Below are positions 54,001 through 60,000 of a DNA stretch of 64,000 nt, piece by piece. The position numbers were made by a program. The stretch comes from Candidatus Woesearchaeota archaeon. Its GTDB lineage: Archaea > Nanobdellota > Nanobdellia > Woesearchaeales > JAZDKJ01. Each line of letters opens with the position of its first letter. The stretch's first letter is position 1. Where the stretch lies: assembly GCA_043803105.1 (NCBI GenBank), contig JAZDKJ010000013.1:51814-115813 (forward strand). Direction: 5' to 3'.

Positions 54001-57000
54001 AAAACAACCTTGGCAGAATATTGCGCAACCAGAAGATCTGCCAATGCAGCAAAATTGTCCTTGGGCCATTTCCTGCATTGGGATGACTCTGCAGAGCCAA
54101 TGCCAAATCCCACAAGAAAGTCTTTCGGTTGCACGCCATGAGAATTCAAGAGGCGCTTTGCATATTGTTTTTTTCGAGCTGGAAGATTGACCTTTTCAAG
54201 GTGTGTTACCTTAGAGCTTACACCAAGGCTTCGAACCAGATCAAAATATGTTAGGGCAACATGCTGGTCATCACGGTAAGGGATTGCAGTATCGTAAAGC
54301 CTTGAGCGTGCCTGATTTGCATAACCTATAGAACTCTTGCCGAGAAAAAAACTCAGGATGGCGGAGACATTCAAGTATTCCTCCATGTCAATCACTACAT
54401 CAAATCGCTTGTAAAAGCGGAAAATCGACCTAATAACACTTGAGAAACCAAGGTTGAGTATGATGAGCTCGTCAATGAATGGCGCACCCTCGTAGACTGC
54501 TTTGTTCCTTTCTGTGGCGAGAACAGCCAGATGAGCTTTTGGGAACCTTGCCTTGGCAGCCTTAATCGCAGGCAAGGTCAATATGGTTTCACCAATCCCC
54601 CAGAGCTGGACAAAGAGAATGGATTTCTTAGAAACAGACATCTTTCTCTTGAAAGGCGCGAGCAGGTAACATGACAATGTGCCCAAATATTTGTCAGCAA
54701 ACTTGATAAACCCAATATTCACTTCTTTTCACCCACTTTCTTGAAAGCAATCTTTCTAACAATCTCCCCAATCCTCTTCTCGTTCTTCCGAACAATGCTA
54801 TAATTGTAAAAACTAATACCGATGAGGAACATAAACCCTAGGATGATAAAGAAATCAAGTGGCCGTTGCATCCGCAGCACATCACGGACGATGAAATTGA
54901 GGGATGTCGGGAAGAGGGAAAGGGCAAAAAAGAACAACCACAACACAGACCAAAATAATGATTCCCTGAAAGTTATCTGACTTCTCTTCCTATACAAAAA
55001 TGTTATGTAAAGCATGAACAAACCAAACAACATACCGAGTATCTGAATCCCAGCAATCATTTTCTCAACCTCCACGTCAACATATTTATTGCAATCTTGA
55101 TTCCATCAATAACTGTTGTGCCCTTATAAGTGTCGCCATAAATTGTTTCAATAGGGATCTGGACATAACGCAGATGGTGTTTCCCAATATTTGCGATCAT
55201 CTCTGATTCCATGCTGTAATCAGTGCTCTGCCACCTGAGCTTTGAGTATGCCTTTGCAGTAAAAGCACGAAAACCGCACTGTGTATCACGAAGGTCAATC
55301 TTGTAAAGAAGCATAGTAAACTTATTGATGAAAGCGTTACCGAAACGAAAGACAAGAGGCATGCAATCATTAGGTTTCCTGTAACCAAGAGCAACATCTG
55401 CCTTACGCAGGGCAGAGACAAAATTTGGTATTTCGACTGAATCATGCTGACCGTCTCCGTCCATTGCAATAATGCAACTTGCTCCATTCAAGACAGCGTA
55501 ATCACACCCAGTCTTGAGCGCGGCGCCCTTTCCGAGGTTGATAACGTGCCTCAGGACCAGGGCTCCGGCAGAGCTAGCCTGCGCACCGGTGTCATCAGTT
55601 GAACCGTCGTCAACGACTATAATTGAGGGCACATACCTACGAGCCCTGAGAAGCACATCATGTATCCTTCTCCCCTCATTACATGCAGGAATAACTAACC
55701 AAATCTTTTTGCCCATCTTCCCCGGAAGACTTCTAGAAGAGATATCCATGAGGTCATGATGCAGCAATTGTCTGATTTCTTACACCCAAGAGCTGGATGA
55801 TATGATAACCATAATCTGTCTTTACAACACCTGAATACTTCCCAACAGTGAGATTGAAGAGCACCTGGTTGAAAGGCCCAATTGTCTGCCCAGGCTTGAC
55901 CCAGCCAATGTCGCCGCCGTTCTGAGCGGTTGTATCAGTAGAATAGTTCTTGGCAAGAGCAGCAAAACTTGCACCGGCCTTGAGTTCTGCCAATATCTTA
56001 TCTGCCTCGGCAGAGTCATTAACGAGAATATGCCTGGCATGACGCTCCTCATGAAGCTTGGCCTGGTTCTTGACATCATCCATAATATTCACTGAAGAGC
56101 CCTGCCAATCTATCTTGTAAACATAGACTTCAGTTCCAAGCGGGCTTCTCTCATAGCTGAAGGGCTTAAAGTGGGTCAGGCTATGACCTGCCATGAAAAA
56201 TTGCCTTGTAAACATGCTCGCGGCAAGCTCTGGCTGCATTATCACACTGGAGTAGCCGGCACCCTTAGGCATCAAGACAGCTGAGTAAGGGATAGTATCA
56301 TTAACAAACTTCTTACGCAAAAGTCCAGTCAGTGTGGGAACAACCAATTCCTGGGGATGCTTCTTGCCTGCCTGGGTAAGCAGGTAAGCATCATAGGTGT
56401 TAAGGTCAACCTCAAGCCCATTATCACATTGAGCAACAGAGCCCTTTACATTGCACCCAGCAAGATTTGATGCATAGCTTGGCCAGGGTGCAATCCAGTC
56501 ATTAGAGCCAGTTGTAGGGTCAAGAGACTTGACCTTGTTGTAAGTATTCCTGGCATCTATGGCAGAGTAATTGAATTCTGACTGAAGATATGAGACTGCA
56601 GCAGCCTGGTCCATAAGCCTGACCTGGTTAAAAATCGTCGCCTTCCTGAAATCCCAGGAACCAAAATGAGCCCAGACCCCGCTCTTGCCAACCATATCCT
56701 CAGAGGCAATGAAGAAATCCTCTGGCGGATCACAATGGGTATAGTGCAGGACAACATCTACCTGTGCCTCAGTAAGGCCATACTGCTTGAGGGTCTTTGA
56801 GGCCTGAACCTTGTCTTGAACGAGAATGTCATTTAGGATTTCGACTGACCTATAGGGCTTCTGTATGACTTTATCGAGCTCGTCAAAAGCCTTGTACGAG
56901 CCGCAATCAAGCATACGCAAAATGCCAACAGCAAGATCCTCATTATCTGTAAGCAATGACTTACCAATCCAATAGGCCATAGGATAATCTTGCGAGGTTC

Positions 57001-60000
57001 CATCAAAGGTAACAGCCCTGTCAGCAAGGTACTTAAACCAATGACCGTAATCCCACCAGGAGTTTACTATTGCATCTTGTGATGAATTCTGGTTTATCTT
57101 TTGCAGAGAATCAACCCAGGCCCTGTTAATCAGAGGGATATCTTGCTTTGCAACGCTGTAGGCAGAGGCCACCATATTTCTTGGATAGATAAACACCAGG
57201 AACAAGATAAGCAAAAGGATTGCAGTCCTGGCAAGGTGCTTGTTTACTCCAAATTCCTTGATAGCCCACCTTGAGAAATTTGCATAAACAAAGGTTGAGG
57301 CAGCGGCAAGAGCTATGGCAAATGCAGGAACAAGAAGCAGAACCCACCTAACACCCTTTGTTGACGCGTAAATTGTAGCAATAAACCAAAAAGAAAGCAA
57401 AAAGACGTAAAACAGGTTATGGCGCTTTCCCTTATCCTTGGCAAAACCGATGACAACAATCCCTAGCAAGGCAACCAAGAAAAGAAAGGTTCCGCCCATG
57501 TTGTCGATGATTCCACTAAAATTTATTTCATTCTGCTCAGCAACAGTTGTAAAAACATTAGGCCAGACCTTTACTGTGCCAACATCTTTTATGCCTGAGA
57601 AACTCTTGGCGCCAGCAAACACTGCTGATGTGAAGGTACTAAATGTCAGGAATATGGATACAGCAATCAGAGATGAGACAAAAAACACAGCTGTAACCAC
57701 AAAGGCTTGTCTAACCACTGGAACAGCAAAGAAGGAAGTGAGACTTTTTTTCAAGGCTTGCAGATGAATCAGAGTAAGGTAAGCAATATAAAGTGCAGCG
57801 GCTATAAGTATGAAGTCGATAATAAACCACCAACCGCCCCATGCAAAGCTATACAAACCAACAAGAAAGCCAGAACCAAGGGCCAAGAAGACATTATGCT
57901 TCCACGTGCGGCCTTCAATTGCCTCGATGAAGAGCCATGTGATAATAAGGGGGAAGAACACGTTGTATGAATCAGTATCGCAGACACCGCCGCTAGACCT
58001 TACCAGGAAAGCCGGATGCAAGGCCATCACCAGGGCAGCAATAAATCCTGCAGTGTTTCCGCCAAAGCGGCGACCAATAAAAAACGCAGGGATAACACAC
58101 AAGGCAGAGACAAGAATTGGCATGAAGAAGCAAACCCTGTCAAGCTCGAAAGTGCTGTCAAAAACGTGCAAGAACTGATAACTATAAGCAAGTGCATAAG
58201 CATGAAACATGTCACCTGGAAGCGGCCTGCCAAGGGGAGCAATCATGTGGTCATCGATCTGCACTCCATTCACAATCTTGTCGCCAGGATAACCATGAGT
58301 CACAACATTGCGTGCATGTCGCAGCCAGTAGTAAGTGTCAATGTCAGGCAGATAGGTATGGCCATCGTTATCCTGCATTGCCTGCTTGAAATATTTAGAA
58401 GTCTCCTGAACCTGGAGGTCAACCTGGGCCTTCTGCTCCTGCATAAACTTCTGGAACTCTGAGGCAACAAACTGCTGCTTATTGGCATCAGGGAGATTAG
58501 GGTATTGCTGGTCCACCTGAGCACTTATCTGTGACTTGAAATAATTCTCAACACTGCTTTTTGCCCAGTCGTCAGTCACAGGGAGATCGAGCGAGATGTG
58601 CCTCAGCTGCACGCTAATAAGAATAGGAATAAGTATTAGGAATATGATTTGGTATCTGAGGAAGAAGCCAGAGATTTTCTTCCAGTCCAGACCTTCCTCT
58701 TCAGATGGTTTGTTATCCTTGCTGCGCTTGAAAAAACCCTTAATCTTGGTAAAATCTATCGAGACTTCATCGTCATCTTTAGCAGTTTCCTGTTTTACAG
58801 GTTCTTTCTTTGAATCCGACTTGAAGAACCTCTTGAGCTTGGAGAAATCGATTGCAATCTCCTCATCTTTTTCAAGGTCCTCGGCCTTCTGAAGGTGATC
58901 TTTTTCCTGGCGCAATGACTCAACAGCTTCCTCTTTCTTCTCAATCTGATGTTCTATCTTTGACTCAACATACTCTATCTTTGCCTTCTCATGCTTGAGG
59001 GTTTTGATGTCCTCTTGATCCTCTTTTATATCTTCATCTATCTTGGCCTCAGCCTCGGCAATCTCCTTTTTTGCCTGAACAGGCTTCTTCTTGGAGAAAA
59101 TGCGTTTTATCTTGGCAAAATCGATTGTTATCTCTTCGTCTTCATCTTTATCCATGAAATCCCCAATAGAACAGAAAAGTCAACAATTTAAAAAGCTTTC
59201 TAATGAAAAATCAGAGCAGGCAGCGAAGAAAGCAGAGGAGGCGCGGCTCTCTTAAAACAAGCTGTGCAGTCAGCCTAATTGGATGGTCCCTGTCGATTTT
59301 GGAGAAAACTGTTCTTACGCGAGGTTGGGAGCAAAGGTAAACAAGACGGTTATAATCAACAAGCGAAAAGCGATCAAGAATCTTCCTGGCCAGGAGATGG
59401 AGTCTCAAGTCTGAACCAAGCTCTCGACGGACTAAAGTTTCGTAGTCCTTTCCTCCCAAAATCGATCTTGCAAGACATGAGGCAGCAGTCAGTCCAGAAA
59501 CAAGGCCTCCTGCGCTGGTTGCTTTTACCTGGGCTGCTGCGTCTCCCACAAGAAAGACAGTCCTTTCTTGGTTTTGAACTTTGATAGCAGGATTATATCT
59601 TGGTACAAGACCTGCCTGCCTGCTGATGACTTGGCAATGAGGTGCGCGTTCACTAATGAACTTGTCGAATAGCGGCCGAGGGTTGTTTTCAGAAAGAACT
59701 CCAATCCGAGCAATGGATCTGCTCTCAGGGACAACCCATGCAAAAGTGCCCAAGAAAGGATAAAACTCAATCACATTGTCATTCTTAAGCTTTACACTTG
59801 CTTGCATGCCAGTCCAGAACCTCCGCTTACCAAAAAGCTGGTAGACATGAGCAACTTTCGATAAAGGACCATCAGAACCAACAACTAGGTCAGTTGAAAC
59901 TGTGCGGGGCTTGCCGTTGTTATCAAGCAAGATGCCTGTCCTCGACTTGGAGACAAATCTATGCGAAAGATGAAGCCTGGCACCTGAGGCAACAGCGAGG

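What a model noticed while it worked through the whole genome (the two positions that open the first line are those of the whole stretch)
55757..59155. Oligosaccharyltransferase AglB fused to a parvulin-type prolyl isomerase
The AglB/STT3 homologue (1133 aa, minus strand) ends in a PPIC/parvulin rotamase domain. Among close homologues in Woesearchaeota some carry the same parvulin domain and others an FKBP domain at that end, two unrelated isomerase families, which suggests a functional link between N-glycosylation and prolyl isomerisation outside the cell.
Evidence so far: Pfam STT3 260-654 (E 6.3e-43), Rotamase_3 1037-1123 (E 1.8e-23); PrsA/PpiC models at 1027-1130; of 120 listed homologues 9 (with the query) carry parvulin families and 9 carry PF00254 FKBP; archaeal PPIase survey PMC8530231 has no mention of STT3 or oligosaccharyl.
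(Added by a program. Inside this text positions count along the whole contig: contig position 51,814 is position 1 of the stretch shown here. "Call 12" and the like, gene names such as g00115 and contig names such as C1 are that model's own, and its searches are not shown. The text may have been shortened before it was handed on; [...] marks where a part breaks off. The agent that wrote the report below was given it as the finding of a first reader that could run no searches.)

Follow-up and report, generated by a model that had tools for sequence, protein, structure and literature searches.

The report
Protein-glycosylating enzyme fused to a proline isomerase
The only N-glycosylating enzyme (AglB) of this small archaeon carries a prolyl-isomerase folding domain on its outward-facing end, and related archaea carry an unrelated isomerase at the same spot, which suggests that glycosylation and protein folding are coupled at the cell surface.

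Summary
Window 55754-59155 (-) is one 1133-aa ORF. It has a complete STT3/AglB oligosaccharyltransferase (all checked catalytic motifs present) followed by a parvulin PPIase (residues ~1035-1127, His/Asp/Thr/His network intact). It is the genome's only STT3.

No hydrophobic segment follows residue ~671. The parvulin therefore lies on the same extracytoplasmic side as WWDYG.

The fusion is widespread. Of 401 genomes sampled from the same order, at least 23 have AglB-parvulin and at least 35 have AglB-FKBP. Both domains are joined at the same 'VDWEG' core end, and the two sets share no taxonomic family. Most other AglBs carry an acidic, sequon-rich tail there instead.

The fused parvulin most resembles bacterial extracytoplasmic foldases (PrsA, SurA).

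My best reading (0.5) is an OST-tethered foldase/holdase that acts on freshly translocated, glycosylatable chains. The main rival (0.3) is that AglB only anchors a general foldase.

Nothing on such fusions turned up in seven literature searches. The closest parallels are human FKBP11 at OST-A and the MagT1/Ost3/Ost6 oxidoreductase subunits. Function is untested. I rate it a new variant of a known kind, interest ~0.65.

The parts
55754..59155 (-). Whole ORF, 1133 aa plus stop: AglB/STT3 oligosaccharyltransferase with a C-terminal parvulin. It is the only STT3 in the 1.56-Mb, 96.5%-complete genome.
58676..59155 (-). Residues 1-160. Charged cytoplasmic N-terminal region, predicted disordered, with three copies of the motif (D/E)E(I/V)xIDFxK(I/L)KxFF.
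   Evidence: Sequence; pLDDT <50 for residues 4-153; 38 K/R in 165 residues; motif conserved in the family consensus and found in no other ORF of the genome.
57143..58675 (-). Residues 161-671. Multi-pass membrane domain (Pfam STT3). The acidic catalytic motifs D271-I-D273 and D393-T-D395 lie in outward loops.
   Evidence: Alignment to human STT3A. D273, D393 and D395 invariant in 119 sequences. Foldseek to PglB gives target TM-score 0.69-0.70.
56111..57142 (-). Residues 672-1015. Extracytoplasmic globular OST domain with WWDYG (residues 700-704, nt 57044-57058) and four invariant cysteines (C751, C808, C901, C910). It ends in the conserved 'IDWQG/VDWEG' strand.
56054..56110 (-). Residues 1016-1034. 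Linker between the AglB core end and the parvulin. It holds a short helix and is modelled with high local confidence.
   Evidence: 10-residue pLDDT blocks 1011-1040 = 97, 95, 90. No coordinates or PAE were available.
55775..56053 (-). Residues 1035-1127. Parvulin (PpiC-type) PPIase domain. The H1042 / D1074 / T1113 / H1118 network is present. Four N-x-S/T sequons lie at 1046, 1070, 1101 and 1127.
   Evidence: Model matches PrsA 6xd8 with target TM-score 0.93, rmsd 1.1 A, 40% identity.
44236..55767 (-). Same-strand array of glycan-synthesis genes directly downstream. GT2 (55057-55767) overlaps the aglB stop. Then come DUF2304, GT9 heptosyltransferase-like, a SIS domain protein, a PfkB kinase, a cytidylyltransferase, GT2, radical-SAM/B12, a PMT_2-like membrane protein and GT2.
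59211..60287 (-). Upstream same-strand gene for an FAD-dependent oxidoreductase. Only its N-terminal FAD/NAD-binding stretch matches Pfam families. A role in polyprenol/dolichol saturation is my guess only.

Best explanation
The gene encodes the organism's sole N-oligosaccharyltransferase (AglB). Its extracytoplasmic catalytic domain is extended by a PrsA-like parvulin prolyl isomerase.

Shown:
- One continuous ORF.
- All OST motifs that I checked are present.
- An intact parvulin catalytic network in this protein.
- Location of the parvulin on the same (outer) side of the membrane as the OST active site.
- The same junction occupied by an unrelated FKBP isomerase in related lineages.

Inferred: polypeptides leaving the Sec channel reach an enzyme that both transfers the glycan to N-x-S/T sequons and binds or isomerises nearby Xaa-Pro bonds. 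The PPIase would act as a tethered holdase/foldase. It would either keep sequon-bearing segments flexible enough to be glycosylated, or fold them immediately after glycosylation.

This is the proline counterpart of the thioredoxin subunits MagT1/Ost3/Ost6 of eukaryotic OST. It is also a covalent archaeal parallel to FKBP11 at the human OST-A translocon.
For: Fusion and intactness:
- Pfam and NCBIfam domains.
- D271/D273, D393/D395 and WWDYG align with STT3A and are invariant.
- The parvulin aligns with SurA domain 2 and PrsA at E ~1e-22 to 1e-19. Both His, the Asp and the Thr are conserved.
- The AF2 model has mean pLDDT 87.1 and pTM 0.81. It matches PglB, AglB and STT3 for the body and PrsA for the end.

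Topology:
- No hydrophobic stretch after residue ~671.
- Four invariant Cys in the C-terminal domain.
- Four sequons inside the parvulin.

Selection for a PPIase as such:
- 23 of 401 order genomes have a match running from the core end through the parvulin. One more parvulin lies in a 1150-aa frame.
- 35 of 401 have the core end plus FKBP (E<=1e-38 only).
- The two sets share no GTDB family.
- About 25 of the best 150 cluster representatives (50% identity) span the junction.
- All 9 FKBP domains share an unusual ~20-residue insertion and the same linker, although they fall on both sides of the deepest split of the core tree. This argues for one old FKBP fusion, later displaced by parvulin and often lost.

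A dedicated copy: this genome also has a separate membrane-anchored PrsA/PpiD-like parvulin (SurA_N + Rotamase_3). The AglB copy (45% identical to it) is therefore an extra one.

Precedents:
- FKBP11 on STT3A OST-A (PMC12804085, passages read).
- MagT1 needed for cysteine-proximal sites (PMC4137057, start of abstract in the search listing).
Against: - No assay of any kind exists.
- Among 34 AglB-fused parvulins the Asp/Cys position is D in 16, C in 2, G in 14, N in 1 and a gap in 1. Catalysis may be weak or lost in about 40% of them, which points to binding rather than isomerisation there.
- A foldase next to an OST could in principle shorten the time a sequon stays accessible.
- Most sampled genomes of the order (343 of 401) have neither fusion type at my thresholds. 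In the protein set, 101 of 119 AglBs lack a PPIase, so the domain is dispensable.
- 22 of 35 FKBP-fusion genomes have no parvulin hit at all, against 236 of 343 other genomes that do. 11 of 23 parvulin-fusion genomes have only the fused copy. This fits a fused domain that simply replaces the general foldase. These genomes are kin and not independent.
- I had no model coordinates, so the distance and orientation of the parvulin cleft relative to the OST peptide site are unknown.
Confidence: 0.5

Rival explanations
1. General tethered foldase. The PPIase does the same job as PrsA or PpiD for all secreted proteins. AglB is only a convenient membrane anchor near the translocon, and there is no specific coupling to glycosylation.
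For: - The nearest relatives of the domain are bacterial extracytoplasmic foldases: SurA and PrsA, PpiD-like proteins, and PrsA of Peribacillus and Anaerolineae-type proteins at 45-59% identity.
- 22 of 35 FKBP-fusion genomes lack any parvulin hit, and 11 of 23 parvulin-fusion genomes have only the fused copy. By contrast 236 of 343 other genomes have a parvulin. This looks like substitution for the stand-alone foldase.
- PpiD is known to sit at SecYEG (PMC9643414, start of abstract in the search listing).
Against: - This genome keeps a separate PrsA/PpiD-like parvulin with its own anchor, so no anchor was needed.
- In every case found the anchor is AglB, and the junction is the same for two unrelated PPIase families.
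- Where the PPIase is absent, the same position carries a tail with 7.1 sequons per 100 residues, so this end of the protein can evidently reach an OST active site.
Confidence: 0.3
2. Cis-acting or structural module. The domain acts on AglB itself (its own folding, or a proline switch in a mobile loop), or it is a non-catalytic structural or binding domain. FKBP11 is argued to be an adaptor of this kind in human OST-A.
For: - 14 of 34 fused parvulins have Gly at the Asp/Cys position and one is degenerate.
- High local confidence of the linker suggests a fixed packing.
- The FKBP11 catalytic site is buried, and the authors argue against an isomerase role (PMC12804085, passages).
Against: - The window's own domain keeps the full H/D/T/H network. 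Both His are kept in 33 of 34 and Thr/Ser in 34 of 34.
- The FKBP forms keep Tyr-26-, Phe/Asp- and Tyr-82-equivalent residues in 8-9 of 9 (residue equivalences are my recall of FKBP12 numbering).
- Plain AglBs fold and presumably work without the domain.
Confidence: 0.12
3. Artefact: a chimeric assembly or a lost stop codon joined two genes.
For: None found.
Against: - The same architecture occurs in independent assemblies: 8 other clusters at 41-61% identity, 22 other genomes of the order, and a named Woesearchaeota MAG contig of 53.6 kb (L006).
- The junction and linker are conserved.
Confidence: 0.01

Closest known systems
AglB / PglB / STT3 oligosaccharyltransferases (e.g. A. fulgidus AglB 7e9s/3waj, C. 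lari PglB 3rce/5ogl, human STT3A 6s7o)
   Same: Membrane domain plus extracytoplasmic domain. The acidic motifs and WWDYG are present. Foldseek E 1e-21 to 1e-12, target TM-score 0.46-0.70.
   Different: - Carries a C-terminal PPIase domain.
- Has a ~160-residue cytoplasmic N-terminus with three IDFxKIKxFF repeats.
- No solved OST in the PDB searches showed a covalently attached isomerase.
Bacterial extracytoplasmic parvulin foldases PrsA, SurA (domain P2) and PpiD
   Same: These are the closest sequence and structure relatives of the domain. They are extracytoplasmic, and PrsA and PpiD are membrane-tethered. PpiD associates with SecYEG (PMC9643414, listing).
   Different: The AglB copy has no SurA_N-type chaperone domain. 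Its anchor is an enzyme rather than a lipid or a single helix. The genome's separate 313-aa protein is the true PrsA/PpiD-like one.
Human FKBP11 (with CCDC134) at the STT3A OST-A translocon, PDB 9n9j
   Same: A PPIase-family protein stationed on the lumenal/extracytoplasmic face of an STT3 enzyme. Relatives of this AglB carry an FKBP at the equivalent end.
   Different: FKBP11 is a separate, non-covalently recruited subunit. Its ligand site is buried by CCDC134 and the authors regard it as a ribosome-binding adaptor. Orthology of the archaeal FKBP domains to FKBP11 was not tested.
Thioredoxin-like OST subunits Ost3p/Ost6p and MagT1/TUSC3
   Same: A folding-modifying enzyme built into OST that widens the range of usable acceptor sites by delaying or reshaping local structure (PMC4137057, abstract start).
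   Different: Different chemistry (disulfides, not prolines) and a different fold. They are separate subunits and eukaryotic only.

Membership tests
AglB/STT3 oligosaccharyltransferase (GT-C, Pfam PF02516) | Multi-pass N-terminal membrane domain of the STT3 family | tested here: met
   PF02516 260-654, E 6.3e-43 against a cut-off of 24.5 bits. Hydrophobic segments 164-666. Model matches PglB with target TM-score 0.69-0.70.
AglB/STT3 oligosaccharyltransferase (GT-C, Pfam PF02516) | Acidic metal-binding/catalytic motifs in the first and second outward loops (DxD-type) | tested here: met
   DIDTYYW (271-277) and CDTD (392-395) align with the corresponding STT3A segments. D273, D393 and D395 are invariant in 119 sequences. 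Which residues are catalytic is taken from established knowledge of PglB/AglB.
AglB/STT3 oligosaccharyltransferase (GT-C, Pfam PF02516) | WWDYG motif in the extracytoplasmic domain | tested here: met
   WWDYG at 700-704. W700, W701, D702 and G704 are invariant.
AglB/STT3 oligosaccharyltransferase (GT-C, Pfam PF02516) | DK/MI-type motif that shapes the +2 Ser/Thr pocket | tested here: inconclusive
   The segment FDGTSQDYPMAYWIGK (717-732) aligns with the STT3A region after WWDYG, and D718, G719 and Q722 are invariant. I could not assign the motif variant with these tools.
AglB/STT3 oligosaccharyltransferase (GT-C, Pfam PF02516) | Transfer of lipid-linked glycan to Asn of N-x-S/T | not testable with these tools
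   Needs an enzyme assay. Supporting context: it is the sole STT3 in the genome and heads a glycosyltransferase gene array.
Archaeosortase-A-associated STT3 (TIGR04154) | Score above the curated cut-off of the subfamily model | tested here: not met
   69.2 bits against a cut-off of 450.
Parvulin PPIase (PF00639/PF13616) | Parvulin fold | tested here: met
   Rotamase_3 E 1.8e-23 and Rotamase E 2.9e-19. Model against PrsA 6xd8: target TM-score 0.93, rmsd 1.1 A.
Parvulin PPIase (PF00639/PF13616) | Conserved His / Asp-or-Cys / Thr-or-Ser / His active-site network | tested here: met
   H1042, D1074, T1113 and H1118 are present in this protein. Across 34 fused domains: first His in 33 (one Glu), second His in 33 (one truncated), Thr/Ser in 34, Asp or Cys in 18, Gly in 14. 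The identity of the network residues follows Pin1/Par14 literature (recalled) and PMC8530231 (passages).
Parvulin PPIase (PF00639/PF13616) | Measured cis/trans isomerase activity | not testable with these tools
   Needs a protease-coupled or NMR exchange assay.
PrsA/PpiD/SurA-type foldase | SurA_N-like chaperone domain preceding the parvulin | tested here: not met
   No SurA_N family is found in P0001. The genome's separate 313-aa protein has SurA_N_3 (E 1.9e-13) plus Rotamase_3. AglB-parvulin may therefore work like these foldases but is not a member.
PrsA/PpiD/SurA-type foldase | Extracytoplasmic location, tethered to the membrane | tested here: met
   Inferred from hydropathy and from homology to solved OSTs, whose WWDYG domain is extracytoplasmic. 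Not verified experimentally.

The most novel reading that the evidence does not exclude
A prolyl isomerase is a genuine, ancestral accessory module of this archaeal OST family: first FKBP, later displaced by parvulin. It lets the enzyme use sequons whose accessibility depends on a neighbouring Xaa-Pro bond, as MagT1/Ost3/Ost6 do for cysteine-proximal sites. OST-PPIase coupling would then be a general principle that arose independently in archaea (as a covalent fusion) and in eukaryotes (FKBP11 at OST-A). The sequon-rich tails that replace the PPIase in other lineages would be a second solution at the same site, for instance a built-in pseudo-substrate or a glycan brush.
Probability: 0.25. Interest if true: 0.8.

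Novelty: new variant of a known kind. Interest (0 to 1): 0.65.

Why it matters
N-glycosylation competes with folding, because an OST can only use sequons that are still flexible. Eukaryotes deal with this through extra OST subunits (thioredoxin-like MagT1/Ost3/Ost6), and a membrane FKBP was recently found at the human OST-A translocon. Archaeal and bacterial OSTs are regarded as single-subunit enzymes without such helpers.

Here two unrelated isomerase families are covalently joined to the sole OST, at the same junction, in at least 58 of 401 genomes of one archaeal order. This is comparative evidence that proline isomerisation or binding is useful right at the glycosylation site.

It also offers a simple one-polypeptide system for testing how glycosylation and folding are coupled outside the cytoplasm. 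A practical use could be improving the site occupancy of engineered glycosylation systems.

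Tried and rejected
- **Complex prediction.** I ran the AglB core (160-1015) against the parvulin (1025-1133). 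The result was no verdict (score 0.00, controls not run). It counts neither for nor against docking.
- **Mixture-model trees.** The IQ-TREE LG+C20 runs did not finish in two 300-s calls, and the 'careful' LG+G4 run also did not finish. I used the quick LG+G4 tree and a FastTree. Neither is rooted, so gain and loss cannot be told apart from the tree alone. I ran no AU test.
- **Homologue search on residues 1025-1133.** This found only bacterial PpiD/SurA-like long proteins and missed even the known fused relatives, because of the word index. It says nothing about the spread of fusions.
- **Genome-contig scan.** It was limited by its six peptide patterns. Only one of 80 loci (L006) spans the junction.
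- **'Phylum' sample.** All listed rows of this 391-genome sample were 'same order'. Whether fusions occur outside the order is therefore undetermined.
- **ESM Atlas.** No usable hit.
- **Model geometry.** Model coordinates are not delivered, so I could not measure the distance from the parvulin cleft to the OST site.
- **Considered and dropped:** the archaeosortase-associated STT3 subfamily (69 bits against a 450-bit cut-off), and a cyclophilin partner (no PF00160 hit in the genome).
- **Neighbourhood linkage.** Where both an aglB gene and a stand-alone parvulin gene were listed, they lay on different contigs or tens of kb apart.

Full report
**1. What is there**

The coordinates in the finding are window coordinates. 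A single ORF runs 55754..59155 on the minus strand, 1133 aa plus the stop.

Pfam gives the following matches:
- STT3 260-654, E 6.3e-43.
- STT3-PglB_core 695-757.
- Three overlapping PpiC-type rotamase families, the best being Rotamase_3 1037-1123, E 1.8e-23.

NCBIfam PrsA, PpiC, PpiD and SurA models match residues 1027-1130. The archaeosortase-associated STT3 model is far below its cut-off (69 against 450 bits).

The N-terminus is real. M1, D12, K15 and F20 are nearly invariant in an alignment of 119 homologues.

The genome holding the window is 1.56 Mb in 13 contigs and 96.5% complete. This is its only STT3 match.

**2. Both enzymes look intact**

Against solved structures by sequence, DIDTYYW (271-277), CDTD (392-395) and WWDYG (700-704) align with the corresponding catalytic segments of human STT3A. 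D273, D393, D395, W700, W701, D702 and G704 are invariant in the family.

The last 115 residues match SurA (second, active parvulin domain) and PrsA at E 8e-23 to 1e-19. Archaeal parvulins (2m08, 2rqs) match less well, at about 1e-14.

The parvulin hydrogen-bond network is present as H1042, D1074, T1113 and H1118.

An AlphaFold2 model built on the 119-sequence alignment has mean pLDDT 87.1 and pTM 0.81. Only residues 4-153 and the last four are below 50.

Foldseek places the body on PglB (E 4e-21, target TM-score 0.69-0.70), STT3A/B and A. fulgidus AglB. It places the end on PrsA (6xd8: target TM-score 0.93, rmsd 1.1 A, 40% identity).

**3. Topology**

- Hydrophobic segments lie between residues 164 and 666.
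- After residue 700 the highest 19-residue Kyte-Doolittle mean is 0.83, far below membrane values.
- The N-terminal 165 residues hold 38 Lys/Arg and are predicted disordered.

In all solved OSTs the WWDYG domain is extracytoplasmic. With no further membrane crossing, the parvulin must be outside as well.

Two observations are consistent with this. There are four invariant cysteines in the C-terminal domain. There are four N-x-S/T sequons within the ~100-residue parvulin, against five in the rest of the protein.

The linker is modelled with high local confidence (10-residue blocks 97, 95, 90). That hints at fixed packing. I had no coordinates or PAE, so this stays a hint.

**4. Relatives**

The homologue search gave 383 hits, of which the best 120 are listed. 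I confirmed FKBP_C and Rotamase_3 in representatives.

I aligned 119 of the 120, dropping the 746-aa partial P0021. Every core ends in a conserved 'VDWEG..N' strand. What follows falls into three types:
- a short linker plus a parvulin;
- a short linker plus an FKBP;
- in the 101 others, an acidic low-complexity tail.

Both isomerases are therefore attached at exactly the same place.

All nine FKBP domains share an unusual ~20-residue insertion. They keep the Tyr, Phe-Asp and Tyr positions that I recall as FKBP12 Y26, F36/D37 and Y82, in 8-9 of 9.

**5. How common**

I searched 401 genomes sampled from the same GTDB order.

With the last 263 residues of this protein (core end plus parvulin), 23 genomes, including this one, have a single match running from the core end through the parvulin. 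One further genome (G367) has a parvulin in a 1150-aa open frame.

With the last 265 residues of the FKBP form P0040, at E<=1e-38, 38 genomes match. In 35 of them the match runs to the end of the FKBP.

The parvulin set falls in 18 of the tool's family codes and the FKBP set in 16, with no overlap. The type of isomerase is thus inherited within families.

Together that is at least 58 of 401 genomes. My thresholds make this a lower bound, and the remaining 343 are 'not found with these queries'.

A second sample of 391 genomes, labelled 'phylum', showed 22 junction-spanning parvulin matches. All its listed rows were 'same order', so the range outside the order is unknown.

In a library of 1.84 billion cluster representatives at 50% identity, 25 of the best 150 hits span the junction (23 of them from the first 14 query residues, two only in part). 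Many come from short contigs.

Source names call these organisms Candidatus Woesearchaeota or Nanoarchaeota.

**6. Evolution**

I built trees of the AglB core with the isomerase columns removed: FastTree on 119 rows and IQ-TREE quick LG+G4 on 60 rows. They agree.
- Eight parvulin forms make one clade (support 97-98), with two plain forms nested inside. P0033 sits apart.
- FKBP forms make several small groups along the backbone.
- One FKBP form (P0114) is sister (support 100) to a large plain clade on the other side of the deepest split.

At least six changes of state are needed on the FastTree. The trees are unrooted, and the mixture-model runs did not finish.

The FKBP domains on both sides of that split share the same insertion and linker. 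The simplest history is therefore one old FKBP fusion, displacement by parvulin once or twice, and repeated loss. This is inference.

**7. The rest of the genome and the neighbourhood**

The genome also encodes a 313-aa protein with an N-terminal membrane anchor, a SurA_N-type domain and a parvulin. That is a PrsA/PpiD-like foldase. Its parvulin is 45% identical to the AglB one.

There are two FKBP matches elsewhere (open frames of 157 and 227 aa) and no cyclophilin match.

aglB sits in a same-strand gene array. Its stop overlaps a GT2 gene. Then follow DUF2304, a GT9 heptosyltransferase-like gene, a SIS-domain gene, a PfkB kinase, a cytidylyltransferase, another GT2, a radical-SAM/B12 enzyme, a PMT_2-like membrane protein and a further GT2. 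An FAD-dependent oxidoreductase lies just upstream.

**8. Mechanism**

The shown facts are the fusion, the intact motifs, the outside location, and recurrent occupation of one junction by two unrelated isomerases.

From these I infer that the isomerase acts on the stream of newly translocated polypeptides that the OST also acts on. It would either hold sequon-bearing segments in a flexible state or fold them straight after glycosylation.

Known parallels:
- The thioredoxin-like OST subunits. MagT1 is needed for cysteine-proximal sites (PMC4137057, start of abstract in the search listing).
- FKBP11 sits with CCDC134 on the lumenal side of human STT3A OST-A. Its authors regard it as an adaptor, because its ligand site is buried (PMC12804085, passages read).
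- PpiD at the bacterial SecYEG channel (PMC9643414, listing).

**9. Evidence that cuts the other way**

Across 34 fused parvulins the first His is kept in 33 (Glu in the one degenerate domain), the second His in 33 (the other sequence is truncated there), and Thr/Ser in all 34. The Asp/Cys position, however, is Asp in 16, Cys in 2, Gly in 14, Asn in 1 and a gap in 1. In a large minority, binding rather than catalysis may be what is kept.

The domain has been lost often.

22 of 35 FKBP-fusion genomes have no parvulin match at all, and 11 of 23 parvulin-fusion genomes have only the fused copy. In contrast, 236 of the 343 other genomes have a parvulin. This fits a fused domain that takes over the general foldase role. 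These genomes are related to one another, so I did not apply a statistical test.

I therefore give 0.5 to the coupled reading, 0.3 to 'general foldase anchored on AglB', and 0.12 to a cis-acting or structural role. An artefact is essentially excluded.

**10. Novelty**

These full-text searches found no description of an OST-PPIase fusion:
- AglB + parvulin: 0 papers.
- oligosaccharyltransferase + peptidyl-prolyl + archaea + fusion: 3, unrelated by title and abstract.
- AglB + DPANN: 17 papers, 15 listed, none on this by title and abstract.
- STT3 + PPIase: 8, unrelated.
- AglB + FKBP: 1, which mentions FKBP11 only.
- oligosaccharyltransferase + parvulin: 3, unrelated.

The 2024 review of archaeal N-glycosylation has no occurrence of isomerase, fused or fusion (PMC11407970, term search).

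The 2021 survey of archaeal PPIases does not mention STT3 or glycosylation. It reports parvulins only in Euryarchaeota and Thaumarchaeota (PMC8530231, term search and passages).

Supplements were closed, and subscription journals are not covered. Domain-architecture listings in public databases may show the combination without comment.

I rate it a new variant of a known kind.

The tallies include genomes that the tool flags as unpublished. None of the fusion-bearing genomes named here is among them.

Noticed in passing
Homologues P0009-P0120 (C-terminal tails after the 'VDWEG' core end); compare window 55757-55774: The 101 AglBs without a PPIase end in acidic low-complexity tails that hold 316 N-x-S/T sequons in 4460 residues (7.1 per 100 aa). 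Their globular domains have 0.92 per 100 aa. Shuffled tails give a mean of 102, SD 8.9 and a maximum of 131 in 200 shuffles. 87 of the 101 have a sequon in the last 12 residues. This could be a self-glycosylated tail or a built-in pseudo-substrate.
   Followed up: partly
window 58676-59155 (-), residues 1-160: Three copies of the motif (D/E)E(I/V)xIDFxK(I/L)KxFF lie in a charged, predicted-disordered cytoplasmic N-terminus. The motif is conserved in the family consensus ('DEEISIDFSKIKNFFK' x3) and is found in no other ORF of this genome. Function is unknown; a docking site for a cytoplasmic partner is a guess.
   Followed up: partly
L002 976-1917 (+) = own genome contig C12, about 94821-95762: A 313-aa PrsA/PpiD-like protein with an N-terminal membrane anchor, a SurA_N-type domain and a parvulin. 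Parvulin matches occur in 272 of 401 genomes of the order. A 2021 survey that covered only two Nanoarchaeota genomes reported archaeal parvulins only in Euryarchaeota and Thaumarchaeota, and only of the small PpiC type.
   Followed up: partly
Fused parvulin domains of P0175-P0313 and P0001-P0033: 14 of 34 AglB-fused parvulins have Gly ('S-x-G-P-S') where Asp or Cys normally sits in the active site, and one (P0287) is degenerate. These may be chaperone-only domains.
   Followed up: yes
Order-level genomes: Genomes with an AglB-FKBP fusion mostly lack any parvulin match (22 of 35). In contrast, 236 of 343 genomes without a detected fusion have one. This may mean the fused isomerase substitutes for the stand-alone foldase. 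It is not corrected for relatedness.
   Followed up: partly
window 50685-54722 (-): The aglB gene array contains a GT9 heptosyltransferase-like gene, a SIS-domain (GmhA-like) gene, a PfkB kinase and a cytidylyltransferase. The set resembles a nucleotide-heptose pathway and hints at a heptose-containing glycan.
   Followed up: no
window 56111-57142 (-), residues C751, C808, C901, C910: Four cysteines in the extracytoplasmic domain are invariant in 119 homologues. They probably form two disulfides.
   Followed up: no
window 60428-62614 (+) and 62639-64000 (+): Two ORFs have no Pfam match. The second (open at the window end) starts with a signal-peptide-like segment and is cysteine-rich. They hold zero and one sequon respectively.
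   Followed up: no
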